The notes below the pieces were generated by a model. The model did no database searches and was not told the origin of the DNA. It was given only the letters and a program-made list of their open reading frames with translations. The translations under genes and the position numbers were made by a program. Below are positions 5,475-60,251 of a stretch of DNA of 64,000 bases, one piece after another; the stretch's first letter is position 1; each line of letters opens with the position of its first letter. Source of the stretch: Amoebophrya sp. A120 (Eukaryota; Protista; Dinoflagellata). The stretch spans positions 1,903,151 through 1,967,150 of the forward strand of contig CAJINV010000007.1 in the NCBI GenBank assembly GCA_905178155.1, written 5' to 3'.

Positions 5475-8400
5475 GTGTTGTTTATCACTTGTATACGAAA
5501 CACGGCGCAACCGGGTCAACAGGGCTCTCCCGACTTGCCAACCTTGCTTCAGCACCATACCACGCCCCCGCTCGACATGCAGACACCGGATCCGAAGTCC
5601 AGTATAACCTTCCAACAGCATCATGACAACTACTACAAAACCCCACAGAGGACGCTCGGAGGCCGTGGGGGCTTTGATGGAAGTCGAGTATCGCAAGAAA
5701 AAACTGTTTCACTGTAAACGTGTAATGCAGAAACTGCATCTGAGAAGTTGAAGTGTTTGTCTTGCTACACAGGGTTCATGGATGCAATAAATACACATGC
5801 AAGACGCTAGATTTTTCGCTGTGTTTTCCCTTAGGAATCAATCTCGCATCGCAAATTTTCTCTGTGATGTAGTAGAACAAACTTGTCGTGATGCAAAACT
5901 TGCAAAATCCTAACAGTGAAGCACTTTTTTCGTACGATATCGGGGAAGCCACAACCAATACCAGGACCCGCACAAGTACTGCGGCAGCATCGACGAATGC
6001 GAAGAGCAGTGCCAGCAGCAGCACATCAGAGGTAGTGGTGGAGGACCGCACTCGCATCAGTTTCACCAACAGGAGAGCAACAGTTTATTTCCCAACGACC
6101 AGATGATGAACTACAATCAGAACTACAACGGCCCCCGTCCAAGTGGAGCATGTGTTAACGTGAACTCGAACATGAACAATTTGAATTTCATGAACAACGA
6201 GGACAACCAAAACTGTTACAACATCACCGGTTCGTTGCAATATCAAAACCGATACTCGCCCAACGAAAATAACTCCTCTTTTCAGAATGCCGCAAGAAGC
6301 TCCCCTGGTGTAGTAGAGCACCAGCATCAAAGGCACCACATAAGCCGGGGCGGTGGGAATTACAGTGCCTCGTCGCTATATGCTGCTACGGGAAGTTGTG
6401 CTCAGCAACGAAGCCCGGGCATTTCTGGTAACGCCCATGGGCGCCGCAGTGGGGGTCTCATATCCGATGGAAAATCACTACCACGGTCACCATCAAGATT
6501 ATAAACATAAACAACGAGCTCTCGCATAATTTTTAACGATGAAGGAATAAATAAAGATAAACACAGAGGCAAATAAGCATTTTTTTCGTCAGCAGCTCGT
6601 CTCACGACCAGGTTCCAGGAAATGAATTATGCGCGCTTGTTCTTTTGCCTGTTACAACATACTTCGAGTTTGATGGTACGTCGTGTTTCCTTAATTTATT
6701 CACACGGCATACAGTACGGCGGCGGCGCAGATTGGCCGAAACTCGGTGTATAACAGCTACAGCAATAAAAACTTGAATAAGAGGGGCGAAGTGGAGCAAG
6801 CCACCACGGTGATGATCCAGAACGTGCCGAACGCGCTGGGGCAGCAGGACCTCCTGCACATTATCGATCACGATTTCAACTTCAAGGGCTTGTACTAACA
6901 CTTCTTGTTGCTGCGTTTTCTTGATCGACGTGCAATAGAGTAGCGTCGTCCTCGTCCATTTAATTTACTGAAATTTAATATGAAAGTCGTCGTATCTTTT
7001 ACTTTTGTAGTTTTCTCCTCGCGATGTTGCAGCAAGAATGGAAACAAGTTCGGGCATCATGCTTCTTCTGGACGATAAGTAGAATGAATATGAGTTGTAT
7101 GCTTCTGGATCATGAAATAAATTATGAAGCACGTAGCCCAAAACGGGAAGGCGAAGGGAATGATCACAACGATGAACAAAAATTTTATTCGGTTAAAAAA
7201 AATCGCGGAATAATTGTTCCAGGTACGATTTTTTCTACTTGCCGATTGATTTCGAGTCCAAGGCTAATTTCGGGTACGCGTTCGTCAACTTTGTCTGTCC
7301 CAACGACTATCAAAATAGAAAAACCCCCCACCCCACATCAACACGAAATCTGTGATGCTGGATTTGCGTACACAAATCAGATTTGTCTTGTTGGAGAGAA
7401 CTGCAGGCCCATACTAAGCCTGAGTAAAGAGGTTTTGGGCTACGCTCTTAGCATGAGAAACGTCTGCGCTGTAGGCCCAACAGCATCACAAACCGCCTGC
7501 ATGATGCTGCGGAGCCTGTGGAGTTGCCTTCTTGCAACACAGAGATGCCGCGTGGTCGCAAATCAGCATTGCAAATTTTCTGCGACGTACCTTCTCGGTA
7601 CGGGGAGGGGGGATTTTTCCTCACAATAACGACGTCCAGCCCTTCATCAACGCCTTTTCCGGGCTATCAAAGTGAAAAAAGCCCCCACCCCATATCGGAT
7701 ACGGAAGATGCGCGAACTTGTGATGCTGTATTTGAGTACACAAATCGACTTGTATTGCTGGAAGGCCAACAGACGAAGCTGCGGCCTAAATTGCCGGTAA
7801 TCCGTCATGCTGTTTCCCACTTCCAGCTGCCTCCTGTCATCCTGGAGCATCAAGGCTTTCCCACGCTAGACAGCACTACAGTCCGCATCTTTTGCCTTCT
7901 AGCATCACAAAGCTGATTTGTGACCACAAATCTGCATCACAGATTTCCGCTTTGATATGGTGAGGGGGCATTTTTCATTGTAATACGGGCAAAAGCTGCA
8001 CGAGAAATCCAAGAAACTCGCCAACTGCGTGCTCGCGCAACTGCAAGGAAGGGAAAGCAACATCGCTTACTACCGGAATTCGGCCATGAATCGGGCGACC
8101 ATCCCAGAAGACTTCAAGCCGGTCATTATTTCCCCGGACGGTATTGATGATGGATTTTTATATGGTGATTTTTATTCATGTTGATGTCGAAGAGCAGCTT
8201 CCACTTCTACGATGAAATATTCATTGCATTTCACTTTAGTGATCATCTGATGCTTGTTGTTGTTCAGCTTCAACTTGTCTGAAAAAAGGATTAGTATGAC
8301 GGTCTTCAGCCTTGAACCACCCTACTGCTTTATCGACGGCATGGTTACCTCCACTCTGAAAAAAACCTGCACTTCAACAGGTAAGCGCGCTCCCCTGCCC

Positions 8401-9426
8401 CCACCGGACAAAGATCTGAAACCGATTATGCCGCGCGCGAAGCGACCGAGTAGCAATAATTACTACGGAAGCAATAGCGGCGGTGGGCGCGGCGGGGGCG
8501 GCGGCGGGGGAAATATTAGCGGAGGAGGTTTTGGTGGCAATAACAGTGCTTTTAACCAGTCGCCGCCGCTTGTGTCCTCCTCCTCCTCCACTGGAGGAGC
8601 GCATCAGCAGCAGCGAGGAGGTGAACTATCCACAGGAAAAAACCGATCCACACCCATTCTTTGCATGGCAAACGCATGATTTGCATTTGATAAGTGTTTT
8701 GCATGACAAATTGGATATGGATGGGCTTTTTTCTGTGGATATGAACAACACTTATTTCACAACAACAGCACTGGAACAAACCCTCCAAACGTGATGAACA
8801 GCACCAGTAGCAGTAGCAGCGGAAACAGTGGCGGCCGTGGCCCAGATACTAGTACCGGCGCCAGGGGCGACGAAAATCCGAACTCCATATGTTCGTCCTC
8901 TTACAACAAGATGAATGATTTTGAGCAGCCTGAGAACCAAGATCATCGTCTTCAGGTTCATGAAGTGGACGAGTCCAGTAATGACAAGCAGCACGACCAA
9001 AGGGACTACAACACGACTAGGTCGTCTTGTTGGAAGCCGAAACTGCGACTTTCCCCGAACAACAAGAAAAGCAGCACGAGAGACAGTCCCCAAGCAGCTG
9101 CAGGAGTAGTAGATTCTGGGTCTTCATCTTCTAGTGGTTCTTACGCGACGGCGAGTGAGCAGATGAACAATACCAGCGGGTCCGGTTCACATCACAACGC
9201 TGGAAATGTTGATCCGATCATGCGCAACAGCCGTGGTAACACTAACAAGAACAACAAAGGTATTAAAGGTGGAGGTAAGCGCGGCGGCGGAAAGGGCAAC
9301 AACTACATGCGGGATAGGAATTCGCAAGGGGGGGCTGGTGGTGGCTCCGCGAAAAACAGTCCCGGGCTGGAATCGTCCGCTTCGAGCGGCTCGCCAGCAG
9401 CTGTGCGAGCGGCGGAGCTGTACTAA
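5475..9426 (+). CDS. Mei2-like RNA-binding protein (C-terminal RRM, RRM_2 type), multi-exon
   Basis: Removing the GT-AG intron 6892-7222 and the introners at 7308 and 7665 gives [101 protein letters not shown], the Mei2 RRM3 signature; stop at 9426; 5' end approximate. Confidence 0.85.
7308..7628. mobile_element. Introner family A (non-canonical intron/MITE)
   Basis: TAT...ATA ends, imperfect TIR (AAAAACCCCCCACCCC / GGGGAGGGGGATTTTT), 5-bp direct repeat ACGAC; removal restores the RRM frame. Confidence 0.9.
7665..7985. mobile_element. Introner family A, opposite orientation to the 7308 copy
   Basis: TAT...ATA, TSD CGGGC (7660-7664 / 7986-7990); removal gives FSGQKLHEK in frame. Confidence 0.9.
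8627..8741. mobile_element. Introner family B (short)
   Basis: TATCCACAG...CTGTGGATA TIR, TSD TGAAC; similar to 54408-54521. Confidence 0.9.
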
Positions 9427-12162: not shown

Positions 12163-15100
12163 ATGGGTTCTTGCCTCGGCACGTGTCTCGCCAGCTGCTT
12201 TGGCGTATGCTACACAAAATCTTAGCTCTCCACCATCACCATGATGATCGCCATACAAAAGTTTTTTTCACTGCTGTGCAAGATGAAGAAAAGGAATTTA
12301 CGGAACGTGAATGGATCGCCATCACCATCACCATCGATCATTCGCGTCGAGTAAATATAATTGGTGTTTTGCATATAATGTATGAGAAAAAAAAAACACA
12401 GTGAGAGCGAGGAACAAGCTCCTGTGGAAGAACAACAACAAGGTTTTCCGTAGTTGCATAAAGCAGTTGCATGGGGAAATGCCTCACCTCCGGCCACGTC
12501 AAGAAAGACTCTACGATGCGGAAGATGTTCGCGTTTCTGCAGCTCTGGAACATCGTCTGGCTGTTCATGTACCGCTGGCTTGCACCGCATTATCAAAAGG
12601 AAAAATCCCCCCTCTCCATACTGAAAAGGTATATTTTTGGAAATTTGTGATGCTGATTTGTGGTCACATTGCAAGAAGGCAACTCCGCAGGCTCCGTCGC
12701 GTTTTGTCATGCTCTTGGGCCTACGGCCGCGCCGCTGTTTATCATGCTAAGCGCCCAGGCCGAAACCCCTCTACTCACACTTGATATGGGCCTGTAGTGC
12801 TCTCCAGCAAGAAAGCTCGGACTTGTGTGCACAAATCCAGCATCGGAAGTTTCGTTTTGATATGGGTTGGGCGGATTTTTCCTTTTGATACGCATGTCTC
12901 GAAGTTCCCGCTTTTCAACCACTTTTTTCTCTTCGAGTTTGGGATCATGGAATGCAACAAAGCAGGACGAGATGATCTTCATGGTGGTAATGCAAGAAGT
13001 GCGACTGCCCCAGGTGGTCTATCCTGTGCAAAATTATCGTACTCGTACTAATTGCAATCATGCATGACGAATCCTGTTTCTTAGCGAAATCAGCATTACA
13101 AATTCCATTTTTCCTTCTGGAAAAAATTGTATTGCGATTTATACTGGTGCGATACTTTTGCAATGCATATGGTCCAGATCAAAGCAAGATCACGGCTTGT
13201 TTTATGCTTGAGAATTACGAAGTAATTCGTTAGCACCAGTGTTGAGTCCATGGAAAAGAAGAGTCGTCTGCTCTCGTCTTCGTCTCGTCCATGTCTTCGT
13301 CATAAGATCTAATTGGTGGGTCGCGCATACCGCAAATAACGCGACGGCACAGGCAAGCGCTCTAGTTTCGTACTGGCCCAGTCTCGGGCGTCTAAAGTCT
13401 CTTACTAGACTAGAAATAGTAAGAAGTTGTTCACGTCAAGAGATCTGGGCTCCTGGCTCGGTTTCCGCATTACATGCGACGAGAGCGGCAACCTCGCAAC
13501 GTCTCTGCCTAGAGAAAAGCCCACTATGGCGCCCAAGTCGTTTTTGCGCAAAATCGAGTGCTCGTTTTGCAGCCAGAAGCGGTTGGCTCACACACCGCGC
13601 AACACTTCGCCCGCGTGTCCGAATTCTGAAGCCTGCAAAGGCGAGTGCTACTACTTCGCGAAAGACGGAGATTTGCAGACGGTGAAGAAGCATCGCACCT
13701 TCGTAGAAGCGACTTACCCCCTACCGAGGCTTCGCCTCGAAGACGCGAGCATCTGCGTCGACTGCAATCTTTGTAAGTTGTTCCCCGACTCCAGAAAGCG
13801 ATCCTGGGTATTTGATAGAGAAGTGGTCGAAGCTTCAAGCTTTGCTTCCAGCGTGGAAGACGATCCGGCATCAGCTCTCAGAACTCTGAAGAAGGCGAAA
13901 GCTTCGTACGAATATTCTGAGAAGTCTCCTCCTACATCTCTTCCGCGAAACTTAGGCAGCTCAGCTCTTGCAGACAAGCAGTCGCCCGCATCTTCTGAGA
14001 AGAATCCGGAAGCTTAAAGCAAAAGACATGCCGTCGCCGTCTGGATCCTTGTCTCAGGGCGTTGCCATGGGTAGCGACACGACCGTCGCTCAACAGGTCG
14101 AACCCGAAACGGCCGTCATCGAGGAGGAAGTCGCCGCAATGCGCGCGCGCCAGTTACTGGACCCCAAGTCGGTCGACTACCCGTTGCCATTCGACAAAAC
14201 CGGGACTGTGCACCGCCCAGACAACTTCGAGTGGATCCCGAGCGACACGATCTTCACCAAGCACGATGTCAAGTCCGTCGCTGTCAAAATGTACACCGAC
14301 AAACAAAGGATCACGGTGGTCCGACGATAACTGACTTACGACGGAGAAGCAATCACTTTGCGCTCCAAGGTGCTACTTTGTCTTTAATCTGTCTTGCATA
14401 TCAAGAGCGATTCACGCATCCGCACAAGCGTGCGTCTTCAACTCCATTCCCATCTTCATTCTCGAAGGTTCAGACCGAGCATCCGGCATACATGGCTGAC
14501 TCCCACGGCGACATGATTCAGAACGTCATCCAGCCCACTGAGACCCAGAGGGCCTGGAAGTGGGAAAACGGCAAGCACATCCGGCGCCTCCGCGCGCTCA
14601 CCATCGTCAGCAACGCACTCGATTACGCCACTTGGGCATACCTGGCGTTTTCCGATTTTCAGGACATCGAGTTGATCGCCAGCATGGCGGAGACAATCGG
14701 ATACGTCCTTGCGGACCAGTCCCGCGGCAAGGCGAAGTTGTGCATGCAGGTCCTCAAAGACTGGCTAGAAGTCCGGTTGGACGACATTCCCGATGGGAAA
14801 GCACCCGACATCGCTATGCGCAGTGCACTTTTCGACTTGAGCGTCGTGCTCTGCCCGCCCTTCGCAAACGCCAGCAAGTGGAAGTCCGCCTTTTGCAGAG
14901 CCAGTTTTGACCTGATCCCGCCCATTGCTACAGTGAGGTCCGTGGATGAAAGCCCGATGATCATCGTAGCGAGGACGCAGGATTATGTAAACGAGATTCA
15001 TGAGAAGAGACAGACTGACTTAGAGTTAGGAAAAGCTTTGCCCGGGCGCGTTGCTGACCAGGAAGGAATGTTGTAAGTCTGCGAAATTCATTTTCAGTGT

Positions 15101-27100: not shown

Positions 27101-27681
27101 TTCTACATTACAGATTTACGCTTACGCGACAGCTTTTTTCTTGCATAAACCGTCGGCGCCGTTTAATCACGACGGGGGGACCGCCGAAGGAAGAAACGCT
27201 CTACTTCTTGACGATCCACGCGGTATGGGAGTGTCAGGATTGAAATTGTCAAAGTTGAAAATGAAATAGTTTGTCATGCATAAAATGCATGACGCGAGGC
27301 GCGTGTGTTGCAGAGCAGGCAAGTGAGGCCGATTGTAAGCCTGTTTGGGCTTAGCGCTCGAGCTGCTGAAGTAGTATGACAAAATCAGTCTTCTTTGCCT
27401 AAGCAGCATGGCAAACTGGATTTAAGGACTACCAAAATTTGTCATGCGCCACTTGGAAACTGGGTTGCAACTGGCATCCATTTTATGCATGACAAATCAT
27501 TTCAACTTTGTCGATTTCAACTCTGACGCATCCATACGCGGCTTCGGCGTTTTACTTCCGCTTCCTGCTGTACCAGAGACAAGACTTGGTTGGCTACTGC
27601 ATTCTAGCGGTCGGCTTGTACGCAAACATAGTCCTGTTTGGCTGGGCGCTGGTTCGCCCGCAGATTTACCCGGATGAGTAG
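12163..27681 (+). CDS. Serinc/TMS1 (serine incorporator) family multi-pass membrane protein, interrupted by 7 introners and the YR retrotransposon
   Basis: N-terminus MGSCLGTCLASCFG; reconstructed motifs CFQQQATERVFLSFAILF, LNKFWGAKLL, FYLTAQMMILYDLGHSWNKTW, NGAILPSALLVAYFAWLQW and C-terminus FGWALVRPQIYPDE* match the Serinc consensus. Confidence 0.85.
12591..12890. mobile_element. Introner family A
   Basis: TATCAAAAGGAAAAATCC...GGATTTTTCCTTTTGATA TIR, TSD CGCAT. Confidence 0.9.
13020..13169. mobile_element. Introner family D (150 bp)
   Basis: TAT...ATA, TSD TGGTC; highly similar to 32324-32473. Confidence 0.9.
13200..13429 (+). repeat. Split direct repeat A1
   Basis: 230 bp; about 4 mismatches (counted by eye) versus 24283-24512. 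Confidence 0.95.
13526..15076 (+). CDS. Retroelement 5' ORFs (Cys-rich Zn-finger-like N-terminus plus helical domain), structure unresolved
   Basis: MAPKSFLRKIECSFC...CPNSEACKGEC...CVDCNLC (13526-14017); ORFs 13968-14330 and 14231-15076 with protein-like composition. Confidence 0.5.
15401..18578 (+). CDS. Gag-like protein with Cys-rich fingers and a CCHC zinc knuckle, multi-exon
   Basis: Frame-compatible introns 15645-15743, 16116-16205, 16369-17708 (GT-AG) and 18216-18348 (GC-AG); C-x2-C-x4-H-x4-C knuckle CANCKSAKHWQSQC at 18369-18410; stop at 18576-18578; the 5' part appears frameshifted. Confidence 0.7.
16405..17643 (+). other. ~1.24-kb imperfect rod-like fold-back inside a Gag intron
   Basis: Symmetric pairing about the loop at ~17024-17026 (GCTTTAATTTGTT..GAAATCC/GGATTTC..AACAAATTAAAGC); ends CAGGCAGCCGGGTCCGGGCAA / TTGCCCGGGCCCGGCAGGCTG; several internal helices checked, with many G-U pairs. 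Confidence 0.85.
18817..20915 (+). CDS. Tyrosine recombinase (YR) of the retrotransposon
   Basis: GVRRGAE (catalytic R), KAKND, VALRRAGAT (HxxR box with H replaced by V), GGWRS...AIY (catalytic Y at 20631); upstream exon joined by the GT-AG intron 19124-19176. Confidence 0.88.
21071..24053 (+). CDS. Pol-like polyprotein: RT - RNase H - DIRS-type adenine methyltransferase-like - Macro domain (2 introns, one apparent frameshift)
   Basis: KYRLVADW, GLDLADCY, VPFGISPAP, YVDD (22052-22063), WLGF; RNase H motifs GDAA, INAKE, YTDN, NIVADCLSR; MT-like IECFAS...WFPP; Macro IAHLCC..KGVAELVFDRWP...SVAVPLRIGCGLNGG; introns 21562-21637 and 21877-21959; +1 shift near 22905. Confidence 0.9.
24141..24282 (+). 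repeat. Split direct repeat B1
   Basis: 142 bp, near-identical to 24692-24833. Confidence 0.95.
24283..24512 (+). repeat. Split direct repeat A2
   Basis: Near-identical to A1; directly abuts B1. Confidence 0.95.
24692..24833 (+). repeat. Split direct repeat B2 (right terminus)
   Basis: Near-identical to B1; followed by CTTT and then Serinc exon sequence. Confidence 0.95.
24910..25167. mobile_element. Introner family F
   Basis: TATCAA.TGTAAAA.TGTCTGGGTCTGG TIR; TSD CCGCC/CGGCC (1 mismatch); frame restored (FLSAIGATK). Confidence 0.88.
25248..25513. mobile_element. Introner family F
   Basis: Same TIR type as the 24910 copy; TSD TCCTA. Confidence 0.9.
25853..26137. mobile_element. Introner family G
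   Basis: TATC..GTAAAAACGTCCCCA / TGGGGACGCTTTTAC..GATA; TSD CCTGG. Confidence 0.88.
26936..27147. mobile_element. Introner family E
   Basis: TATCCAAGAAAAAA...TTTTTTCTTGCATA; TSD AACCG; reverse-complement homolog of 32555-32763. Confidence 0.9.
27224..27536. mobile_element. Introner family C
   Basis: TATGG..GTCAGGATTGAAAT TIR; TSD CGCGG; similar to the 29136 and 31444 copies. Confidence 0.92.
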
Positions 27682-41392: not shown

Positions 41393-44095
41393 GTGAACAA
41401 AAGAATAGTGCCGCAGAACAAGATCATGCTCTCTCTTGTCGTTGGCGCGGTCTCCTTGGTATTCCGCACGTTGTGGTCAAGAAGACCCGTGTCATCTTTC
41501 TTTCATCCGGTCGTTATTTTGCATCATCTTCTTGATGACGATGCAACGCTGGCAACGGCGAAGCGGCTCGATCCCGACCAGAACGAGGCGGATGGAGCAG
41601 CGGCTGCAGCTGCAGGTCGTGGCCATCATGATGAAGCTGTAGATCGGGATAACATAGTCATGGAGAAGCTGCGAAGGAGCGTTGAAGACGATGCAACACC
41701 AACACGACCAGGAAGAAACACAAACAGCAACGTCAACGAGTCCTCGCGATCGAATATCAACTCCAATGCGAAAACAAAAAAGTACCTCATCGTCTTTGTC
41801 GGAGTGGGGTCACAGGCAGACCGAGCACAGATTGTCGCTCGGAATTGGCGGAGGCATTTGCGGCCGCATAATCTTCGCAATTATCGCGAAGGACAGCAAA
41901 ATAGAATAACTGCCGCGCAAAGTAGATCTGCCCACCAGGAGGCGGAGAATTTTTTCCACAACATATGCAGCAAAAAGAAAACCCCACGAGCACGACCATG
42001 ATCGCAATCACACTCTTGCATCAACAAGTTCTGCATCAGTAGAAAGTTGCCGCGCGTCACAAATTTTTTTTCGTGATGTTTCTTGCAGAACGAAAAGGAA
42101 AAGAGAAATCACGTACTAAAAAGCTTGACTGTGATGCGTTTTTGCGCATGGCAGATTTTTTTGTATATTGCAAAAAGACAAATTCCCAAAAATGATCGCG
42201 GTGGTGTTTTTTTCTTGGACACAACAACGTCGAGTTTCATTGCGTCGTCCTGGCCTACACTACAGATCTGCCTCGCTCTTTTCAATACCAGCTAGGGAAA
42301 GACTGCACTCTGGTGATCTTCGAGAACCACAACTACGTCGACCTCCTCAAAGTAATCACGAACGATAACACCCAGCTAAAAAACGCGATCTTGCAGCAGC
42401 AGGCAATGGCAATGCGTATCAAAAAGATGAAGAACTCATTCCCCTGCTCCCCATGATATCGCAGGGACGAATGAAGTCCCCTTTTTTACTGAATGAATAT
42501 GCATATGGCGAGGGGAAGGCGCTTCTACTTTTCCTCGCAATAGAGCGAAGTGCTGGCAGGTCTGGAGTGGGTATTAACGATGGAAGTAGTGCCACTTCCG
42601 CTGAAGCCGGTCACGACAAGGATATTCAGCCCCATCAACCCCACGGGCAGCTCAACGATTACGAGTACATCTACCTGATTCTGGACGACGTGCAGCTTGA
42701 CGAGGCCGAATTTGACGCCAAAAACTTTTTCGAACTCGCGGAACAGGCAAATCTGGACGTCGTCTCTACGGCCATCGGTCAGGGAAACTGGCACCTCGTG
42801 CACAAAAGACAGCTGGAGAATTATATTGAGCCTGGTGGTGCCGCTGCATCTGCTGGCACAGCTGCAGTTTCTGGTCGCCTCGTGCGTTTCGTCGAAATCC
42901 AGGCAGTCGCGTACCGTCCTTGGATATCCAAGTAGAAAAAAAATCTGTGTTGCAGAAGATGCTGCGTAGACAAGGACAAGGACAAACTTCTTTTCTTTGT
43001 CAAGGAGCATTTTCACGAAAGTGTTTCGGCTACATTCTCGCGCTGACTCCTACTCGTCAAAGCTCATATTCTGTATCACGGTCGTGCCCGCCGTCGAAGC
43101 TGGAAAGATACGATCCTGCTGACACAGAAAGGGTCGTCGAGGTCCTGCAGAAGAAACACAAGAATTTTTTTCCTGGATATTGGGCTTGGGCGTGTCAATG
43201 GCATTTGCTGGAACCTTGGATGAACCCTTCCGGGTGGGGGCACGACAGATGGTTCTACGAATTCTGTAAAGGAAAAAAACCACAAGTACCAAGCACGACA
43301 GGACAACTGCAGCAAACTGTTTCGGAAACGAGGAACTTGCAAGCGCATCAAGAGCATCAGCATGATCTTCTCCTAGCAGACGACGACCAACAAACGCGAA
43401 CCAATTCTCGATCCATAGAAGGACCGTTACCTGTGCCTCCCGTGGTGAAAACCACTCCTCGTCCCTCCGTTCAACCACTCCAGCAGTACGAGTACGAAGA
43501 GTTCGTACACTACTGGCAGGAAAATCTAGCGATTTTATCCGCCGGTACTGCCGAAGGTACTACGGTAGGAAAAGAAGCTTCACTCGAGGACGGTGATGGC
43601 AGCAGTTCTTCTGGAAAAAACGCCGCTGAAGTTCTTTTCTTGGAGCAGCTACCACCACATTTGAGGAGCCGGCGGGAGGAGCTATGTGGACGGGATGAAA
43701 AACAAAACGAAAGCGAAATGGAAACCAAAGATAGACAAATGCGCATCGGCATTGTAGACAAGTATCTTGTTCACCACCTCAGTAATATTGGGAACATGAC
43801 CAAGTCGAGTTTGGTATGGAATAGAAGGATGAGACCACAAAGCAGAAATGATCTATTCAAAAGATCGCAAGGTGATGACGTGAGCTACAGCTTGGACTTG
43901 CTTGCTGCTCTTCTCTCCCGAGTCGTGATCTGGGAGCAGGGGAAGCACGACAAACATAGGAAAATTTTGATTCAAAGACAGAGTCCGTGGAGTAAGCTAA
44001 GCCTTCGGACCCAACCATGCCGACACTTCTCTCTTTTGCTATTGCTACTCTCACTCTGCATGGAAGTTTTTTGTTTTGCCATGATTTTGCCATGA
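41393..44095 (+). CDS. DUF707-like (glycosyltransferase-like) protein, multi-exon
   Basis: YEYIYLILDDV, FVEIQAVAYRPW|AWACQWHLLEPWMNPSGWGHD and IGIVDKYLVHH resemble DUF707 motifs; requires removal of the introners at 41964 and 42925 and a GT-AG intron at ~42416-42543. Confidence 0.7.
41964..42221. mobile_element. Diverged introner (TAT...ACA)
   Basis: TSD CAACA, weak TIR; removal restores FFHN|NVEFHC. Confidence 0.75.
42925..43179. mobile_element. Introner
   Basis: TATCCA.G.A.AAAAAA / TTTTTTTCCTGGATA; TSD TTGGA/TTGGG; removal joins conserved DUF707-like motifs. Confidence 0.85.
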
Positions 44096-46483
44096 ACTAG
44101 AGCGCACCTCGCGTTACCACATATACTCAGGACAACTTGCGACTGAATTCATCATTTCTGCTTCTTTCTTCGCCGAACCATATTTGGCAAGCGATTCGGC
44201 GCAACGCAAATCACAGGTGGTGAGGACAGAACTTTTTTTCACGGAGATCTTGAAATGCCCCAGATTGGGAGAAAAGGAATACCAAATGAAAAACTTCGGG
44301 TATTTTTAGAAACAGAAGGAGAGACTGATGGACATTCACATTCCTATGTTGATGCATGAGAAATTGACCTCCACCTGCTACTTGATTCCCAGAAACATAC
44401 ACCACGATGAACATACACACCCTTCGAAACACATGGAATAAATGGATCTTCACGACAAAAACGATATTTTTATCGAAATCTAATCACCTGACCTGCTCCA
44501 TCGCAAAATATGATTCTGGATTCAGATTCTCATCGAATGAATTCTATTGATTTTGATCTTGATTCTCTGAAATCCAATGATATTCTTTCCCGTCATGGAT
44601 TCATTCTTTCATTTTAATTTCTTTGTCTTATGAATCGGTCTGGCTCTGTTCTTTCTGATTGAGATTTTCTTCATCAGGATGATATATGGATGAAAGAATG
44701 TAAGAAAGATAATGTATTTCTATTTGAAGATAGATCATTCGATGGATAAATGAATATGATGTATGTATCCGTCCGGGCCTTGCAGGCGGGACCACAACAA
44801 CCAGTGGCAGTGCGGCGCCCATCCGACATACGCACGGTGGCCGCGCGCGTCGAAGGCGAACACCTGCGGCTGGCACCCAAGCGCGACACCGGGACGGGTG
44901 CCCCAGGACGGGGGGCACCCGAACAGGTATAATCGATACTCCGTTGTTGCGTCTGGTGGCTCTTTTGTTTCTCATGCACCCCAATGCACCCCGTCGTGTG
45001 TCGTCGCTCCCCCACCGAACACACAGGTCTGGGTCCGGCGCCTCTGCAACCCGCGGCTGCAGCAACCAGACCTGCCAGGAGGACAAGGACCAGACCCACA
45101 ATACCACGACGCCCACTGCCTGCAGGACAACGCCGCCACCCACCACTGGCCCAAGCCCTGGAATAACCGACTGCACGCGGTTGCGGGGCAAAGCGGTTCA
45201 CACCTATGCGAGACATGGCAGGGGGTTCCCCGGTCCGGGTCCGGGGGCCCCCGGAACAGGTATAGTTCTACTCTTTATCCCTGTGGTCCTGCATGGCATG
45301 GAATGCAACAATATCACGCTGGTCCCGGTGCTCGTCCCCCACACAATCCCCAGGTCAACGACAACCGACACTACGCGGCCAGCAGGCGGACCGGGTGGAC
45401 AGGTGGCCTCGGGACGACCGGGGTGACAACAACGCGTAACTGGACACGACAGGACGACTAGACGGAACGGAGAAAGACGAAGAAAGAAATCTTGAAAAAG
45501 CATGCGAAGGGCAGAAATAGATAAGAAAAAATTAAGTATTAAGGTCCAGCCTTTTGCTGGTCCTGGCTGAAACAACTCCCGAGAACCAGAAAAAATTTTT
45601 TTTGAAGAAGAGGAAAATATAAATCTTGAAATCTAGATTTTATATTTCGACCATCTTGGATCTTGATGCTGAGTAGAAGAGAATTTTGTTTGGGTCGACC
45701 TTTTCATTCAGGACAGACATTTATTTGGATCGAGAAACAACGAGTTTGAGTTTTAATTGTTTTGTAGGTAGATTCAGGCTGTAGTTCAAATTAGGATTAT
45801 AATTATGACAGGAGTTATTCGAAGATCAAGAGAAAGATTGGAGATGTGGAACAAGAGGATTTTTTAGGGCCTTGAACCTTTGACGCCATGCCCTGGCACG
45901 AACAGAAAGAAAGAAAGAAAGAAAGAATATGATGTAGATTTGATAAATAATCGATCTTGATTGATTCCCAATATGATAAATTTGGAAAAAAAATTTAATG
46001 AGGTTGATATAGATTTTCGAAGATTTTTTTAGAAATTTTGAAAACTAGATTTCTAGGTGAAGAGATGAACCAGTGTATTTTTCAGACGAACAAACTCGAA
46101 ATTGATAATTGCAAACTTTACAGGAGAACACAAAGAAACAGAACTTTATAGGGGAAAGCTTTTTTTTTTAAAGGAGAGTGCTTTTTTCGAACTTGTTGTT
46201 GTATTCGAGCCAAAATTTTATCTTCAATTTCCTGGATCTTAGAATTCACAAGTTGCTCAGGTTCAACTGCGGTTTTATTGCGAGATCAAATCGAGAAAGA
46301 AGAAAATGGGACTCAAACGGAATTTTTAGGACCTTGAACATTTAAAGCCATACCCGGGCATGGAAAGAAAGAAAGAAAGAAAGATTTTCGAAAAATCAAA
46401 ATCTCGAATCATATTAATATAGATTTTGCAAATTTTTCGAAAATCCTCAATGAAATTATGTCGATAAAAATAAAAATTCCAAC

Positions 46484-51795: not shown

Positions 51796-54700
51796 TCACT
51801 CCAGCCCACTTTCCACCAGCATGGGGATCACGGCGAAGGCTCCACTCAGAAGCACAAACGCTAAAGACTTTCGCACTAGGTCCGCGGTTAACACGTTGCC
51901 GAGGAGGCACCAACAATGCTTCTTCGACACACGATAATCGCCATAGTAGACGCAACCGTGGTCAAGCAACAAGTGCAACTCCTGCAGTGGATCGCGCGTT
52001 GCTGTTCCGGTGGAAGTGTTTGTCGGACCAAACACGTCATCGCGTTCATCTTCTACTCCCATCTCCCCGTAGAAAGAACCTCTTGCAGTTGACGTACCAT
52101 GGTCGTGTTGCCCGGACGAAACTTTCGCATGTAACCCTGTACTACCGTCATCATTTCCGATGCGCGATGAATCCACGGCGTTCTGATGTGTTTGATGTGG
52201 GACATGATCTGTTCCTGTGCCTCTATTCTCGCCCGGCAAGACTTCCGTGGCAGAAGAAGATGTGGTTTTTTGAGGAAAACCAGATCTGGTCAAGTGGGTT
52301 TTTTGTTGATTTACACTGGTTCGTCCCCTAAACCGGAGCCGGTTCTTCATACTGCTATCACCCCCGAAGTCACTTCCGAAAGCATTGCTCCCACCCGACG
52401 TAGCCGCGAAGAACTCGGGTCTGAAGGTGGCCATGGCGCGATGTCTCAATTGCGAAACAAAAAGCTCGTACTCATCGCCGAGGGACGCCAGGGAGGACAT
52501 GAGCAGGTAGAAGACGAAGAGGAAAAAAGCCGCCTGTGACGGCAGGGTGTTGTAGAGCCAAATCGACAACATGAGGGAGCCGATCGCACCGTAAAGCAGC
52601 ACCAGGAGAAGCATAGCCATGGTGCTGCCTGTGATCTGCCGCGTTCGGGTGAACAGTTGCTGGTGGGTGCGGTCAAAATTCCGCAGGTCAATCGCAATGT
52701 GCGAAATGGAAGACTCGATGGTATCAATTTGATGTTCTGTGCCACCAGTGTCATGAAAACGATCAAGATCCTCGTAGTAGTTCGAGTTCTGAACAACCTC
52801 GAGTTTAATGTGCTGCTCTCCATTGTTGCTTGATGTTGGATGGATGTGCTGCATCTCGGCTGTAGTTGTAGAGGAACTTCGATTTGCTCCGGATGCTATT
52901 CGTTCCGGATTCGATCCACGACCCAAGTTGCCCCGACGGTCCTTCGAGTCGCTTCGTTGTTTGACGACGACGTCGCGCAGATTCATGATCATTTTCTCCA
53001 CTGCGTCGATTTGCCGCATGAGCTGCGTCCTGACCGCCCTCACGTACTGCACGTGACAGTGCGACATGGCGTCCAAGAACAATCCGGAGAACACCAAGTT
53101 GGACTGCATGGCGCAGATCTGGCCGGAATAGAGAATCCCACCCATGGCCTGGTTGAAGTTGAGAAGCCCGACCAGCAAACCCGCAAACATCCCCAGCCGG
53201 AACCGGAAGACAAATTTGTTGGTGAATTTCTGCAAGGAGGACCCCTCGTTCACGGTCGCGGCGCGTTTATACAGGGCGAGTAAGTAACACAAACGTGTGA
53301 TCCAGGTCGAAAAGCAGGAGCTTGGTGACAAAGTTGTGCACGTACGGGCCGAAGATTGCGAACATCCAGAACAGGAAGAGAGTGAGCCAGAGGAGCAGGG
53401 CCTTCGCGCCGAGTCCCTCGTCCGTGAAGAGGCGCCAAAACCACCAGGAGAAGCCGGCGACAAACATCAGCGCGCGCACCGCGTAGCGGGGTAGGAGGCT
53501 GGGAGTCGGAAGGTTCGAAAGGAGGAAGTGGTGTGCTGGTTTATTTCTGTAATGTGTGCTAGCAGCTAAAGTGGCGTTTTCCTTCTCGTCTGGCGAAGTC
53601 GACGCAGTCGTGGAGGTGGCGTAGGACGACGGGTTATAGGATTGCATAATTCCTGTAGTTTTCAACATCTTAGCTTCGTCTGCAGGGGCGGGCGAGATGT
53701 AGATGCTCTGTTCGTCTCGCAGATAATACCTCCTTGTTCTACTCGTACTCACGTTTGCCTGTTTCGCCGCAGTGCTACTGGTGTGGTCCACAGAGTGTAA
53801 AAACAACACATCTGGTCGTTCCGTTGCAGGGTTTACATTTTTTGAAAGAGAACTAGGAGCAAGGAAATTGTCCGAGTGGATCAGTCTTGCGTATGCCTGT
53901 TTCGCCCTCTCCAGGGCGATGACGACCCCTTCCGAGTTTCGCACGCAGGCGGCCATGGCCATTCGGAAGAAATAAAATTGCGGCAAGGGAAGCAGCGTTT
54001 CAGTTTCTTCGATTTCGTCCTCGACGGTTTGTTCCTCTTTGAGTTCTGCTATTGCCAGTTGCTGTCCACCGCTGCTAGAAGTCATTTGTTGTTCCACCGT
54101 CGACGTCGGCCTGCTGCTCACCGGCGGCGTGGTCACCCTCACTCCATGCAAACACCTAACGACGATCCGCTGCACCACCGCGTTCACGACACTGACGACA
54201 AAGGCCAGCGTGAAGGCGGCGAAGACGAGGACAATCGCCCCGCGCCACTGGGTGGCGCCAAACTGCTGGCTGAACGGGTCCTCCCGGGTGTCGAGTTCGG
54301 ACAAACGGACCGCGTCGACGGTGTGAAAAGCCAAGTTCGCGACCGTGTTCGACTGACAGAGGCAGGGGAGACGGCGGTGGCAATCCGTATCGTACCAGAC
54401 CGACCGGTATCCAGGAAAAAACATCCATCCCATCCCCATCCATTTCTTGCATGACAAACACAGGACTTTATACCTGTTTTGCATGACAAATTGGATGTGG
54501 ATGGGCGTTTGTTCCTGGATAACCGGCCCCACAACTTCTCCTGGAGCGCGTACACGCAGTCGTGCCGGTTAGTGAAGAGTTGCTTCGAAAACCTCTCGAG
54601 CTTGAACTGCTCACCCCCGTCTGGTTCGTACCGTGCCCAAGGCAGTTGCTTCTTCAAACCGACGAGCTTCGTGGGCCAGAGCGGATCGGCGTGCTTTGCG

Positions 54701-56355: not shown

Positions 56356-57560
56356 TCACTTCTTCTTGTTCTTCCTTTTGTTTTTTTTGGAGTTCGCTCC
56401 TGCCCCGCCGGAGGCCGCCGCTTCCGTGGTCCCAGCGGACTTGCACTTCTGATTAACTTTTGCGGCCGCAGCGTCTTCTGTCTCAGCGTTATTGATCTCT
56501 TGCACGTGCCGCAGCATCTGTTCTACCGTAATCTGTTTGTTCTCCTTGTTGTTTTTGCCCGGCTTTTCTTTCTTCCACGGCACCGCTTCCAAATTCTCCG
56601 TTGCACACAAGACCCGGTGGCGCAAGCTCCGGAGCGCCTGAATCTGGTCGTAGAACTCCTTTGCCTCCTTGGTGGGCTTGGAAAACGGCCCGAACGCGAA
56701 GTACGCTGCCCTGTACTGCAAAGCCAGGAGCAAAATCCCGCACCGGAACATGGTGTGCTCTGGCGTGTTGTTTTCTGCGCTCAAGTCCGCGATCTGAATC
56801 TTCAGGAACTCAATCGGCGACTCCCGTCTCTGTTGCACAAATGCCTGCATTTTCGCCATCGTGTCCTTCTCATGGCGCAAAATCCGGATCTGCATCCAGC
56901 TTTCCACCATATTTGACCAAAACTTGTACTGTAACACCAAGGGGAAGTAGTTCAAATTGTTGGTGAAGTCCAAATGACGGAGAAACAGGATGCTATTCTG
57001 GTTATGCACGGCATAAGTTATCTTCTCATCATGATGTTCATGATCGTTCGTACTACCGTATTAATTGGTAATTACTGTATCATACTACAGTATTGCATGA
57101 AAAAAGAAAATTCCAGGGGGAGATCCGAAATTCGTCATGCAGATAATTCAGGCAAGAAAAACTAGAAGATCGTCTGCCAACATCCATATATTTTGATATT
57201 AGCGAGTATGATGTTGCTTTTGCCGTGCATAATGGTGCTGGAGCAGCAGTTGCTGGCGCAGTTCCCGGTCCTCGTTGCAGTTGTCCGTAAGTAATAGCGA
57301 CGCAGCAGATAGGTCCGTGCAGTCTTGCTTTTTGTTGTTGCCGATCACGTTCTCCAGCATGTAATAGGCCTCCAGAACGGATTGCATGGCGCTAACAGCG
57401 CTCGGGTCCTCCTTGTGCACCCGCTCCAAGATTTTGTGGTACCCTTTCGCGTGCTATGCAACACAAATTTGCAGCCGCGCACGACGTAGATAACTATGCG
57501 AGGCAGATCTTCTCTTCGGTGTTTAGGTAGCCAACTTAAGCTGTTGGAGGAAGGAACCTG
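56356..57560 (-). CDS. Helical hypothetical protein exons (may be the C-terminal part of the SET gene)
   Basis: ORFs 56356-57009 and 57199-57429 with protein-like composition. Confidence 0.45.
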
Positions 57561-57600
57561 TTCATCTGCGGAATAGCAATAGCCCGCGCGTGCTCTTTCG

Positions 57601-59085
57601 TCATGCAAAGTCGCATTCTTTAGTTTTACGTGCGCAGCTGCAAATTTTTACTTCGAATACGTGCTGCTCCGGGAGTTTGAGTTTGCTCCGCTCGTCCTGC
57701 TGGTTCGCAAACATAGACTTTTTTGTCGCCCACTGCTCACAGGCGTGCAAAAGGGCGCGTGGTTTGTTTATTGTGGCGAAGGGGGTGCAAGTTACAGACG
57801 AGGACATGCTGTTCTCCATTTCATCGGGGTCGCTTTCCTCTTGCGTCGTGTTATTTTTAGTACCCGGCCTCCCAGCAGACGAAGAGCTACTAGCAGACAT
57901 CTTTATTCCTCTCTTTACCGCCTCTGCCGCGTCCTCTTCTGCCTCACAGGCCGGGCAGGTGCACCAAAAGCCCCAATTTCGGCGCAGCTGCGCGCGCCGT
58001 TCGTCGGCGCCCGGGAAGAGGGCGATGTAGGGGAAGGTTAATTCTTCACCTTTCCGGATCTTTTTCGTCGCTCGCACGCGGGCGAAGCAGTAGTACTCTG
58101 CGGGTTCTTGCAGCGCCAGCGGCTGGAGGTCCTTGCCTTGTTTCTCGTGCATGGTCTTCTGCTTCTCTTTGTTACAGCAATTCTGCGGCAGTAAACTCTC
58201 GTCCACCTGCTCCCAGCCGCAGTTGGGCGCGCAGCTGTGGTTGAAGCGAGACAGGGTCAGAAAGAGGCGCCGCCGCCCGGCCTGCTCGATCGTGTTCGTC
58301 TTCGCAATATCGCGGACTCGCAGCCGCTGCCGCTGCAATTTTCGCAGTTGCTTTTTCTCCTGGACCAGTTTCTTCCTCCGTTGCGGATCATCTACCGCAG
58401 CTTTATTTCTTGACGATAATGGCACAGCCTGATTCTCTACAACATTTTTAGAAGAAGATGTTATTTGATCCTCCTCCTCCTCTTCCTCTTCGGTTGTTGT
58501 ATACCCACCTCCGGAGTCGCTCGTCTCCCGCCCGAGGTCTTGTCCCTGTAAATCCAAAATCGCCTTCTGCGCCTTCTCCGGTAGGTTCCGGAATTCTTCA
58601 AAGAAGTAATCAAACGCGTCCACTTTTTCCCGCTTCTTGATCGCCAGCTCCGCGATTTTGCGCTTGGTCGCCTCCAAAATCGGGAATTCTTCCAGGATCA
58701 GTTGTCCGATTTCCAAGTCGCGTTTCGCCAACACTCCAAACCCCTTCCCCGGGATCTCCTTCACTTCGAAGGTGTCGTGCAAGTCGCCGCCGTAGTACTT
58801 TCCGTTCATCACAAAGCAGTGTCGTTCGTCCTCGCGGTCGTAGTAGAAATGCTTTTTCATTTCCTGGCCGTCTTCGCTGAAGACGTCGGAAAAGTTGGCG
58901 AGCTTGTCGATCTTCTGAAACTTATCGACCCGCTTCTGCGCGATCATCTCTTCCGTGCCCGTGCTGTCGTCTTTCAGGATGGACTTGATCATCAGCTCCC
59001 GCCACAATTGGTACCGCTTCTCCGCGTCTTGGAGCATCAGGCTGTGGATGTGCTCGGGCTGGGGGAGCATCTTCACCTGGGTCAT
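57601..59085 (-). CDS. SET-domain lysine methyltransferase (SMYD/Set5-like)
   Basis: GKGFGVLAKRDLEIGQLILEEFP, SRFNHSCAPN, ATKKIRKGEELTFPY, post-SET WGFWCTCPAC. Confidence 0.9.
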   Translation of the reverse strand: MTQVKMLPQPEHIHSLMLQDAEKRYQLWRELMIKSILKDDSTGTEEMIAQKRVDKFQKIDKLANFSDVFSEDGQEMKKHFYYDREDERHCFVMNGKYYGGDLHDTFEVKEIPGKGFGVLAKRDLEIGQLILEEFPILEATKRKIAELAIKKREKVDAFDYFFEEFRNLPEKAQKAILDLQGQDLGRETSDSGGGYTTTEEEEEEEDQITSSSKNVVENQAVPLSSRNKAAVDDPQRRKKLVQEKKQLRKLQRQRLRVRDIAKTNTIEQAGRRRLFLTLSRFNHSCAPNCGWEQVDESLLPQNCCNKEKQKTMHEKQGKDLQPLALQEPAEYYCFARVRATKKIRKGEELTFPYIALFPGADERRAQLRRNWGFWCTCPACEAEEDAAEAVKRGIKMSASSSSSAGRPGTKNNTTQEESDPDEMENSMSSSVTCTPFATINKPRALLHACEQWATKKSMFANQQDERSKLKLPEQHVFEVKICSCARKTKECDFA

Positions 59086-59254
59086 TTGACGGTTTTTTTC
59101 GAATCTTCTTCACGGTTGAAAAATTGACTTCATCAAGTTGTAGGAACAACGAGGATCATCTTCATCATTTTCAGAAGAATTTACTCATCTATACATCAAG
59201 AGCGAGTTATTTTTGTTTGTGTATAGAGGTCGTGGATAAACTGGATGCCCAGAT

Positions 59255-60251
59255 CTACTTCAAGGACGCGAAGTTAAAAAAGCAGTATGGTATCCATACC
59301 CCCTGCGTGAGGTTCTGGTTCTGGTAGAAGAGTGCGAAGCTGGCCCACTCTCCGTTGACTGCGTCGGTGACGATCTCGTCCAAAATGCCTTTCATGTTCA
59401 TTTTCGCGAACTTCTGACACTGCTCCATCCAATCGTGGTCTTTCGTCGCATTCTCGTGCTGCAGCAGGAACCGGTTCAGGAGCTGCCTCCGGATGAGATC
59501 CATGTTTAAGTTCTGGATTTGCTGTTGGTGCTCTTGCTGTTGATGCTGCGGCAGTTTGCTCACGTTTGTTGGGGTCAAATTATTGGTTGAATTTCTTTTG
59601 CTGCTGTCCTCGCCCGCTGTTGAAGTTGTACTGGTCTTGCCAAGCGGTGCTTCTTGCGGAGTCTTCACTTCGCCAGTTCTGGATGAAGCAGTCTCGTTGA
59701 TGTTGTCATGATGATCTCCAGTTACTTTATTATGCAAGGTGGAACAACCACCAGAATTTCTTGTGGAATAGTTCTTGGATGAAGTCTTATCACTGCTTTG
59801 TTCCTTCTCGGGCGTGTTTGCCGCGGTACTCAGACTTATTGACAGGAAAAATCCCCCCTCCCCATATTGAAAAGGTATGTTTCCAAAAATTTGTATTGCG
59901 GATTTCAGGTCACAAATTAATCGCATCTGTCTTGCAAGAAGACAAGGGCAGAAGCTTCCGCCCCATTATGGAAGCGATTTGCCATGCTGTTGGGCCTAAA
60001 GGGGAGCCGCTTGCCATGCTGAACAACTAGACCCATACGCCCCTGCTTAGCCTGGGGATCTGGCCGCAATGCCTCTCTGCAATACAAAGCTGATTTGTGG
60101 CCACAAATCAGCATCACAAATTTCCGTTTTGATATGGGGAGGGGGGATTTTTCCCTGCAATAAGACTGGGAGTGGATTCCGGGGCGCCCGCTGAGACGAC
60201 GGACGATTTGCCCGTTGGCTTCTTTTTGTTCCCTGATTTACTGTTCGCCAT
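59255..60251 (-). CDS. Probable 5' exons of the SET gene, or a separate hypothetical protein
   Basis: MANSKSGNKKK... joins ORF 59255-59926 after removal of the introner 59837-60162. Confidence 0.55.
59837..60162. mobile_element. Introner family A
   Basis: TATTG.CAGG.AAAATCCCCCCTCCCCATAT TIR; TSD AGACT. Confidence 0.92.

What the first reader, a model, noticed from the sequence alone, without database searches (positions are those of the whole stretch)
7308..60162. Nineteen introners share one grammar: TAT...ATA termini, TIRs and a 5-bp TSD
Seen: 19 inserts of 114-326 bp in about 10 unrelated families obey the same terminal rule (one ends ACA). Removing the insert plus one TSD copy restores the frame in the cases checked. 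Sliding boundaries within the TSD does not give GT-AG (e.g. TGAAC, CGAAA). Known: inverted/direct-repeat introners have been described in Amoebophrya genomes, with the mobilising enzyme and splicing route unresolved. Inference: one DDE transposase superfamily mobilises all families. TAY...RTA ends recall IS3EU, although that group is described with 6-bp TSDs.
Basis: partly seen in the sequence, partly recalled or inferred. Interest (0 to 1): 0.7.

Follow-up and report, generated by a model that had tools for sequence, protein, structure and literature searches.

The report
Transposon introns with one shared grammar
Two dozen short hairpin-ended inserts in the genes of what is likely a parasitic dinoflagellate share the same end letters and a 5-base flanking repeat and are missing exactly from likely RNA-derived contigs despite lacking normal intron signals; this intron class is already published, but a shared internal motif found here likely marks a single, still unidentified, mobilising enzyme.

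Summary
The window holds 24 TAT...ATA inserts with terminal inverted repeats (TIRs); 19 have an exact 5-bp target-site duplication (TSD) and 5 have 1-2 mismatches. A strict scan finds 15, against 0 in 30 shuffles. A second assembly repeats the rule: 221 of 337 TIR pairs have an exact 5-bp TSD and none has 6 bp. In likely RNA-derived contigs, 10 of 14 covered inserts are missing as insert plus exactly 5 nt (1 direct junction, 8 by summed length, 1 by contig ends). None of the 24 can slide to GT-AG. The class is published: Amoebophrya A120-type introners, with TAT starts and 5-bp repeats already noted. Not found in my searches: (1) the families are not unrelated, as motif GCATBACA occurs in 16 of 17 families, roughly helically phased from the ends; (2) the cut falls inside the TSD at the 3 informative sites; (3) inserts lie in either orientation. 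One transposase lineage is likely, but no transposase was found. IS3EU/GingerRoot membership fails on TSD length.

The parts
5689..5939 (.). introner, 251 bp, TSD with 1 mismatch; related at its end to 26936/32555
   Evidence: no RNA data
7308..7628 (.). introner, 321 bp, exact TSD, in a Mei2-like RRM gene (+)
   Evidence: upstream exon matches PF04059 and Mei2; no RNA data
7665..7985 (.). introner, 321 bp, exact TSD, same gene
   Evidence: no RNA data
8627..8741 (.). introner, 115 bp, exact TSD; family of 54408
   Evidence: no RNA data
12591..12890 (.). introner, 300 bp, exact TSD; family of 7308, opposite orientation
   Evidence: no RNA data
13020..13169 (.). introner, 150 bp, exact TSD; 89% identical to 32324
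   Evidence: no RNA data
24910..25167 (.). introner, 258 bp, TSD with 1 mismatch
25248..25513 (.). introner, 266 bp, exact TSD; highest-copy family
25853..26137 (.). introner, 285 bp, exact TSD
   Evidence: RNA-like pieces start at 26138 in X3 and X6; length fit
26936..27147 (.). introner, 212 bp, exact TSD
   Evidence: RNA-like pieces end at 26930; summed length exact
27224..27536 (.). introner, 313 bp, exact TSD
   Evidence: summed length exact in X6 record 15
29136..29443 (.). introner, 308 bp, exact TSD
   Evidence: direct junction 29130|29444 in X3 record 10, 313 nt skipped
31444..31750 (.). introner, 307 bp, exact TSD; family of 27224/29136
   Evidence: no bridging RNA-like piece listed
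32020..32158 (.). introner, 139 bp, exact TSD
   Evidence: no bridging RNA-like piece listed
32324..32473 (.). introner, 150 bp, exact TSD
   Evidence: no bridging RNA-like piece listed
32555..32763 (.). introner, 209 bp, exact TSD; family of 26936, opposite orientation
   Evidence: no bridging RNA-like piece listed
41964..42221 (.). introner, 258 bp, ends ACA instead of ATA, exact TSD
   Evidence: summed length exact in X3 record 14
42417..42542 (.). introner, 126 bp, TSD with 2 mismatches, weak TIR, no core motif
   Evidence: summed length exact; an in-frame GT-AG 3 nt shorter is not what the length fits
42925..43179 (.). introner, 255 bp, TSD mismatch at position 5
   Evidence: RNA-like contigs keep the downstream copy of position 5 (pieces start at 43180)
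43815..44182 (.). degenerate introner, 368 bp, exact TSD, TIR 9/20, partly retained
   Evidence: X6 contig 43785-44212 ends 30 nt outside each end; retained form present
54408..54521 (.). introner, 114 bp, exact TSD, in a minus-strand gene
   Evidence: no RNA data
57003..57231 (.). introner, 229 bp, TSD with 1 mismatch, in the minus-strand SET-domain gene
   Evidence: no RNA data
57455..57659 (.). introner, 205 bp, exact TSD, weak TIR, same gene
   Evidence: no RNA data
59837..60162 (.). introner, 326 bp, exact TSD; family of 7308, in a minus-strand gene
   Evidence: no RNA data

Best explanation
The inserts are miniature non-coding transposon-like elements with TAT...ATA ends, inverted repeats, a 5-bp target-site duplication and a shared internal motif; they were likely spread by one integrase-like transposase lineage and are likely cut out of the RNA, together with one copy of the duplication, by a hairpin-guided process that needs no GT-AG. 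SHOWN: the anatomy, the fixed 5-bp TSD, the motif GCATBACA across families, insertion in both orientations, and exact absence of insert+5 nt from contigs of runs X3 and X6. INFERRED, with my odds: X3/X6 are RNA (0.9); one transposase lineage binds the motif 3-7 helical turns inside each end and cuts target DNA with a 5-nt stagger (0.65); it has the retroviral-integrase fold, near GingerRoot/IS3EU or Ginger2 (0.45); in RNA the TIR stem brings the ends together and the two cuts fall inside the TSD copies, 1-4 nt before TAT and the complementary 4-1 nt after ATA, so the offsets sum to 5 and the pre-insertion exon is restored (0.65); the cutter is a modified spliceosome (0.5) or a separate endonuclease-ligase (0.5).
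For: TSD: 221 of 337 TAT...ATA pairs with TIR at least 16/20 in the fetched loci have an exact 5-bp TSD, 3 have 4 bp, 0 have 6 bp; 305 of 402 homology-defined copies are exact. Ends: 221 of 239 elements found with no end letters assumed are TAT/TAT, 12 more have one TAT end. Motif: 323 of 333 elements, 16 of 17 BLAST families; 6-15 hits/kb against at most 0.21 in shuffles in the 12 largest families; outward-facing copies sit at 33-34, 41-45, 54-56, 61-69 and 76-79 nt from the end, period 10.5-11, Rayleigh p about 0.003 uncorrected. Three inserts that the RNA-like contigs drop (42417, 42925, 43815) lack the motif, which favours a DNA-level role. Removal: 10 of 14 inserts in the laid stretch. 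In the loci, insert+5 is the sole best frame in 126 of 266, against 42 for +4 and 41 for +6. Orientation: the largest family lies 12 one way and 22 the other relative to its genes. Cut inside the TSD: at 42925 the contigs keep the downstream position 5; at L027:6508-6810 only cuts 1-4 give M-R where a solved homolog has M-H; at L001:4903-5183 a cut at the TIR edge gives a stop. Folding: z -1.1 to -15, 10 or more of the first 20 nt paired to the 3' end in 22 of 24.
Against: No transposase was found: 0 of 28 window ORFs, 0 of 9 ORFs in a 2,940-bp TIR element, 0 of 37 ORFs in 8 long elements, 0 of 97 long ORFs in the loci; no whole genome was available. Farhat 2021 report no transposase in A120 and reject general transposase mobilisation. 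Gozashti 2025 assign A120 introners to several classes, including a Mutator-like family with 8-9-bp TSD. X3/X6 are only guessed to be RNA, only 1 junction is seen directly, and removal of an ordinary GT-AG intron in the same contigs was not tested. 4 of 14 covered inserts have no bridging piece, and 10 of 24 have no RNA data. 42417 is removed although its ends are not predicted to pair (0 of 20), and 43815 is partly retained. Phasing was noticed after the fact, 8 periods by 2 orientations were tried, and inward-facing motifs show none. The loci were fetched with one family's TIR, which makes up 161 of 333 elements. The cut position rests on 3 sites; the 42925 site could also be A-to-G editing.
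Confidence: 0.62

Rival explanations
1. The inserts spread through RNA (reverse splicing or reinsertion of excised introns), and the ends, motif and direct repeat are splicing signals rather than transposase signals.
For: Farhat 2021 found no transposase in A120 and favour a copy-paste spread. No transposase was found here. TAT ends drift somewhat less than TSDs: 1.6% per site against 2.4% per copy, p 0.05.
Against: Insertion in both orientations. A fixed-length TSD of varied sequence, 205 distinct among 305. Motif spacing near DNA helical turns. Inserts without the motif or with an altered end are still removed; 28 of 379 copies have an altered TAT. One element sits inside an ordinary GT-AG intron.
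Confidence: 0.15
2. Several unrelated transposases mobilise different families, and the common ends and 5-bp TSD are a filter: only elements that the host can remove exactly survive in exons.
For: Families do not align beyond short motifs. Gozashti 2025 list A120 families with several classes and TSD estimates from 2 to 11 bp. 5 of 24 window inserts lack the core motif.
Against: A filter on ends does not explain an internal motif shared by 16 of 17 families that is dispensable for removal. The published TSD estimates are mostly automated; the two manual notes on TA-type or unclassified TIR families both say 5 bp.
Confidence: 0.15
3. The inserts are not removed from RNA; runs X3/X6 are DNA of a strain that lacks them, and the inserts are recent polymorphic transposon insertions.
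For: The tool marks X3/X6 as a guess at RNA, and an empty site looks the same as exact splicing.
Against: The listed pieces have 0 other letters over kilobases yet lack up to 10 inserts, three of them old enough to carry TSD mismatches. Depth differs by gene and between X3 and X6 (0.73 against 34.8 at 39008-39671; 14.4 against about 1.5 at 35024-37015), while run X1 is 27-44 in single-copy bins. Contig ends bracket ORFs. Such inserts also interrupt essential genes such as Rpb1 in the loci. Farhat 2021 report RNA-seq support for this intron class.
Confidence: 0.05
4. An ordinary spliceosome removes them through nearby or slid GT-AG sites.
For: 14 of 24 have an in-frame GT-AG pair within about 20 nt of the ends. 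GT-AG is reachable by sliding in 5 of 70 oriented locus elements, with a weak lean to AG|G (4 against 1.6 expected, p 0.075).
Against: 0 of 24 have a GT-AG pair of the observed length. At 29136 and 42417, where in-frame GT-AG pairs exist, the contig lengths fit insert+5 instead.
Confidence: 0.03

Closest known systems
Introner elements of Amoebophrya sp. A120 (Farhat et al. 2021, PMC7789003; abstract, sections 10-12, 16, 32 and supplement passages read; figures not visible)
   Same: Inverted repeats at the ends, direct repeats at the borders (5-bp example in Fig. S19 legend), IR starting TAT then about 7 variable bases then AAA, mean length 240 nt (here 241), many families, non-canonical borders, no internal transposase.
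   Different: The paper gives direct repeats of 3-5 nt of variable position, reports no relation among many elements, and rejects general transposase mobilisation. Here the TSD is a fixed 5 bp, a motif is shared across families, and the cut is placed inside the TSD.
A120 introner families in Gozashti et al. 2025 (PMC12130899; passages and all 58 A120 rows of Dataset S2 read)
   Same: Most families are classed as TIR DNA of unknown superfamily; family 38 is noted as Ginger, '5-bp TSD, TA/TA termini', with Copia/Gypsy integrase-like homology.
   Different: Families are treated as mechanistically diverse with TSD estimates of 2-11 bp; no shared motif or single grammar is stated in the text I saw.
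IS3EU/GingerRoot DNA transposons (PMC10045372 and PMC6839031; passages read)
   Same: TA..TA ends, occasionally TG..CA; little target sequence preference; non-autonomous derivatives plausible.
   Different: Their TSD is usually 6 bp; here 5 bp. No transposase is available for a tree.
Ginger2/TDD and LTR-type integrase elements (as described in PMC10045372; passages read)
   Same: TSD of 4 or 5 bp for Ginger2.
   Different: Ginger ends are TG..CA; here almost all are TAT..ATA.
Euglenid nonconventional introns (PMC12501133 and PMC11282704; passages read)
   Same: Terminal inverted repeats needed for removal, short direct repeats blurring the junction, proposed MITE origin, possibly non-spliceosomal with circular products.
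   Different: Other lineage and other consensus; their genetic tests have no counterpart here.

Membership tests
Amoebophrya A120-type introner elements | Terminal inverted repeats pairing the two ends | tested here: met
Amoebophrya A120-type introner elements | Direct repeat of 3-5 nt at the exon/intron borders | tested here: met
   5 bp; 19 of 24 exact; 221 of 337 in the loci
Amoebophrya A120-type introner elements | IR begins TAT, about 7 variable bases, then at least three A | tested here: met
   A at 0.82-0.96 in positions 11-14 of pooled ends; description
Amoebophrya A120-type introner elements | Repeated, in families | tested here: met
   summed depth over inserts in X1 up to 205,866 against 27-44 outside
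Amoebophrya A120-type introner elements | Removed from transcripts with non-canonical borders | tested here: met
   10 of 14 covered inserts, in contigs whose RNA origin is inferred
Amoebophrya A120-type introner elements | Host is Amoebophrya | not tested
   Inferred only from the match of grammar, length and GC to the published description
IS3EU/GingerRoot | TA..TA termini, occasionally TG..CA | tested here: met
   221 of 239 TAT/TAT; definition
IS3EU/GingerRoot | 6-bp TSD | tested here: not met
   0 of 337 exact at 6 bp; 0 of 6 window hits at k=6 are TAT...ATA
IS3EU/GingerRoot | DDE transposase of the IS3/IS481-related clade | tested here: inconclusive
   No transposase in the sequence held; whole genome not available
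Ginger2/TDD | 4- or 5-bp TSD | tested here: met
Ginger2/TDD | TG..CA termini | tested here: not met
   1 of 239 has one TGT end; 1 of 24 in the window
Ginger2/TDD | Integrase-like transposase | tested here: inconclusive
   none found
Canonical spliceosomal introners (Micromonas/Aureococcus type) | GT/GC-AG borders supplied by the element and its TSD | tested here: not met
   0 of 24; 5 of 70 in the loci
Euglenid-type nonconventional introns | End-pairing stem with short direct repeats | tested here: met
   description
Euglenid-type nonconventional introns | Stem required for removal; excision as circular RNA | not testable with these tools
   needs minigene tests and circle/lariat sequencing

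The most novel reading that the evidence does not exclude
All TAT-type introner families descend from one undescribed integrase-fold DNA transposon group (TA ends, 5-bp stagger, helically phased GCATBACA binding sites), and the host removes them by a spliceosome-independent, hairpin-measuring cut whose two offsets add up to exactly the transposase's 5-nt stagger. Any such insertion, in either orientation and at any site, would then be a harmless intron from the moment it lands.
Probability: 0.3. Interest if true: 0.8.

Novelty: already known. Interest (0 to 1): 0.48.

Why it matters
How these introns move and how they are spliced are both open questions in print. A fixed 5-bp TSD and a motif shared across families give a precise search image for the missing transposase and a bait for pull-downs. 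Mismatched TSDs give a way to map the true cut from existing RNA-seq, which would separate a relaxed spliceosome from a separate hairpin-guided machinery. If one enzyme lineage explains what were counted as up to 1,954 families, the picture of extreme mechanistic diversity in this genome type would shrink to one invasion.

Tried and rejected
No whole genome was available and the fetched loci could not be searched as records, so there was no genome-wide hunt for an autonomous element. Pfam screens for a transposase found none. The long candidate L037:6001-10208 was rejected as a chance pairing of two separate elements around a host ORF. L074:7259-10198 (2,940 bp, TIR 20/20, exact TSD) has no ORF above 219 codons and no Pfam hit. 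Raw-read run X9 laid only 12 reads and says nothing either way; the run search listed no holder on record as RNA. A test of whether TAT is under selection after insertion was inconclusive. A lean of the TSD toward AG|G was weak. TSD mismatches are spread evenly over positions and do not locate the cut. The exon after 7665 had no Pfam or PDB match, so exact removal in the RRM gene rests on the open frame and on my recalled likeness to Mei2 domains. The exon upstream of the L027 site had no PDB match on its own. The fetched loci hold no orthologous site of the window, so no empty site was seen. Earlier scan notes had nothing on this sequence. Roy et al. 2023 (Curr Biol) is not held and was not read.
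Full report
1. Observation. A scan that assumed no end letters (exact k-bp flanking repeat plus TIR of at least 14/20) returned 18 hits at k=5, of which 15 were TAT...ATA; none of 30 hits at k=4 or 6 hits at k=6 had those ends. The 15 compare with 0 in each of 30 dinucleotide shuffles. Relaxed scans and reading by eye give 24 inserts of 114-368 bp: 19 with an exact 5-bp TSD and 5 with one or two mismatches. One, 41964-42221, ends ACA. By BLAST they form six multi-copy groups and about eight singletons. Sliding within the TSD never yields GT-AG or GC-AG (0 of 24) and yields AT-AC twice. Removing insert+5 nt gives the longest two-sided frame alone in 14 of 24, ties in 3 and is not best in 7.

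2. Replication. A pattern from one family's TIR fetched 134 loci (577 kb) from metagenome contigs; the 79 listed share one assembly prefix. Among 337 TAT...ATA pairs with TIR at least 16/20, the exact flanking repeat was 5 bp in 221, 4 bp in 3 and 6 bp in none. With no end letters assumed, 221 of 239 elements were TAT/TAT and 12 more had one TAT end. Of 402 copies defined by homology, 305 had an exact TSD, 57 one mismatch and 17 two. The TSD has no fixed sequence (205 distinct of 305) and its GC matches the flanks. The set is biased to the searched family (161 of 333 short elements). 17 of the 24 window inserts have full-length relatives there, at 75-94% identity.

3. Removal from RNA. Runs X1, X3, X6 and X9 were laid on 24400-44300, which holds 14 inserts. 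X3 record 10 joins 29130 to 29444, skipping 313 nt, the insert plus one TSD. X6 record 15 leaves 70 nt between its listed pieces, and X3 record 14 leaves 569 nt; both equal the genomic gap minus insert+5 for 26936 and 27224, and for 41964, 42417 and 42925. In both runs the gene's contig has 479 further nt to the left, which fits removal of 24910, 25248 and 25853 and a start at 24835, where a repeat of the neighbouring retroelement ends; those pieces were not listed, so this is the weakest inference. An X6 contig spans 43785-44212, 30 nt outside each end of insert 43815, as expected if both a retained and a removed form exist. Four inserts (31444, 32020, 32324, 32555) had no bridging piece listed; the joints table showed only repeat-derived joints of X1, with 345 not shown; X9 laid 12 reads. 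In-frame GT-AG pairs exist near 29136 and 42417 but do not fit the lengths. The tool only guesses that X3 and X6 are RNA. I accept it because depth varies by gene and between the two runs while X1 is even, contig ends bracket ORFs, and the pieces match the window letter for letter while lacking old, diverged inserts. I did not see an ordinary intron removed in these contigs. The ten inserts outside this stretch have no RNA evidence here.

4. Where the cut lies. Mismatched TSDs show which copy ends up in the message. At 42925 the copies differ at position 5 and the contigs carry the downstream letter, so the 5' cut is at least 1 nt before TAT, unless this is A-to-G editing. At L027:6508-6810 the copies differ at positions 1 and 5; only cuts 1-4 nt before TAT give M-R where one solved homolog (2gn4, E 3.9e-9) has M-H, the other choices giving P or V. 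At L001:4903-5183 a cut at the TIR edge makes a stop in a frame otherwise open for 148 codons each side. Published annotations lean the same way: the A120 splice pairs I saw in Table S4 of Farhat 2021 begin with a letter followed by T, as do 6,681 of 9,716 donors of one A120 family in Gozashti 2025; aligners favour GT, CT and AT, so this is weak support. Elements lie in both orientations (12 against 22 in the largest family), which fits a signal that is its own reverse complement. All 24 fold below their shuffles and 22 pair at least 10 of the first 20 nt with the 3' end; 42417 does not, yet is removed.

5. A shared internal motif. K-mer enrichment in the window gave GCATBACA: 44 hits in 5,786 bp of inserts, 6 in 58,214 bp outside, 19 of 24 inserts. 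In the loci, which were not used to derive it, it occurs in 323 of 333 elements and 16 of 17 families, at 6-15 per kb against at most 0.21 in shuffles. The commonest spacings between copies are 31, 39, 32 and 33 bp. Twenty family-level distances of outward-facing copies from the end cluster with period 10.5-11 (Rayleigh p about 0.003, uncorrected for 16 trials, noticed after the fact); inward-facing copies do not. Three removed inserts lack the motif. Repeated, phased subterminal sites are what transposases bind in several DNA transposon groups (my recall, no call), so I read the motif as the mark of one mobilising lineage.

6. The enzyme. None was found in 28 window ORFs, 9 ORFs of a 2,940-bp TIR element, 37 ORFs of 8 long or nested elements, or 97 long ORFs of the loci. 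The one autonomous-looking element in the window is a tyrosine-recombinase retroelement, which does not fit TIRs with a 5-bp TSD (my recall). TA..TA ends match IS3EU/GingerRoot, whose TSD is usually 6 bp; a 4-5-bp TSD matches Ginger2, whose ends are TG..CA. The elements work like non-autonomous derivatives of an integrase-fold transposon but pass neither membership test.

7. What is known. Farhat 2021 describe these introners, with IRs starting TAT, 3-5-nt direct repeats, a 5-bp example, mean length 240 nt, no U1 snRNA detected, and no transposase in A120. Gozashti 2025 class most of 58 A120 families as TIR DNA of unknown superfamily, note '5-bp TSD, TA/TA termini' for family 38 and 5 bp for family 19, and report integrase-like homology in family 38. 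Euglena nonconventional introns are the nearest tested analogue for stem-dependent removal. I found no mention of the shared motif, of a single fixed TSD across families, or of the cut mapped by mismatched TSDs in searches or in the supplement passages. Figures (including the logos of Fig. S25) and Roy et al. 2023 could not be seen and may hold some of it.

8. Verdict. Real, and a known class. The additions are a tighter grammar, a cross-family motif and a bracket on the cut site, which make the two open questions directly testable. Interest 0.48.

Noticed in passing
window 13200-24837: An 11.6-kb element with split direct repeats (13200-13429 with 24283-24512; 24141-24286 with 24692-24837), an ORF whose features match tyrosine recombinases (19143-20912, atlas score 0.96; no Pfam, NCBIfam or PDB hit) and a reverse-transcriptase-like YVDD motif seen by eye. 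It looks like a Ngaro/PAT-type retrotransposon (name recalled) and sits inside a host coding exon between two introners. Host-gene contigs of X3 and X6 are inferred to begin at its right end; whether it is spliced out or polymorphic is open.
   Followed up: partly
window 43815-44182: The most degenerate insert (TIR 9/20, folding z -1.1) has a retained form in X6 at depth 8.1 against 10.8 for the upstream exon; retention extends the frame 93 codons into the insert. Possibly a decaying or exonising introner.
   Followed up: partly
L032:7517-7756: An element lies inside what reads as an ordinary GT-AG intron of an RNA polymerase II Rpb1 gene; the locus holds ten called elements in all.
   Followed up: partly
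L074:7259-10198: A 2,940-bp element with TIR 20/20 and exact 5-bp TSD interrupts a coding frame; it has internal repeats, no strict motif and no recognisable ORF. A possible deletion derivative of an autonomous element.
   Followed up: partly
L074:4180-5224 and L038:7772-8919: Two introners of different families each carry the same nested repeat of about 870 bp (78% identical over 566 bp): another mobile element landing inside introners.
   Followed up: no
window 6800-8160: A Mei2-like RRM gene (PF04059; Mei2 E 9e-7) carries a GT-AG intron (about 6892-7222) and two introners separated by a 36-bp exon.
   Followed up: partly
window 45821-46384: A short AT-rich repeat pair with a relative in L044 (82-88% over 83-110 bp), in a gene-poor stretch without introners.
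   Followed up: no
oriented locus elements: Sense-strand TSDs lean weakly to A-G-G at positions 3-5 (4 of 70 against 1.6 expected, p 0.075), which would let a minority be read as GT-AG introns.
   Followed up: partly
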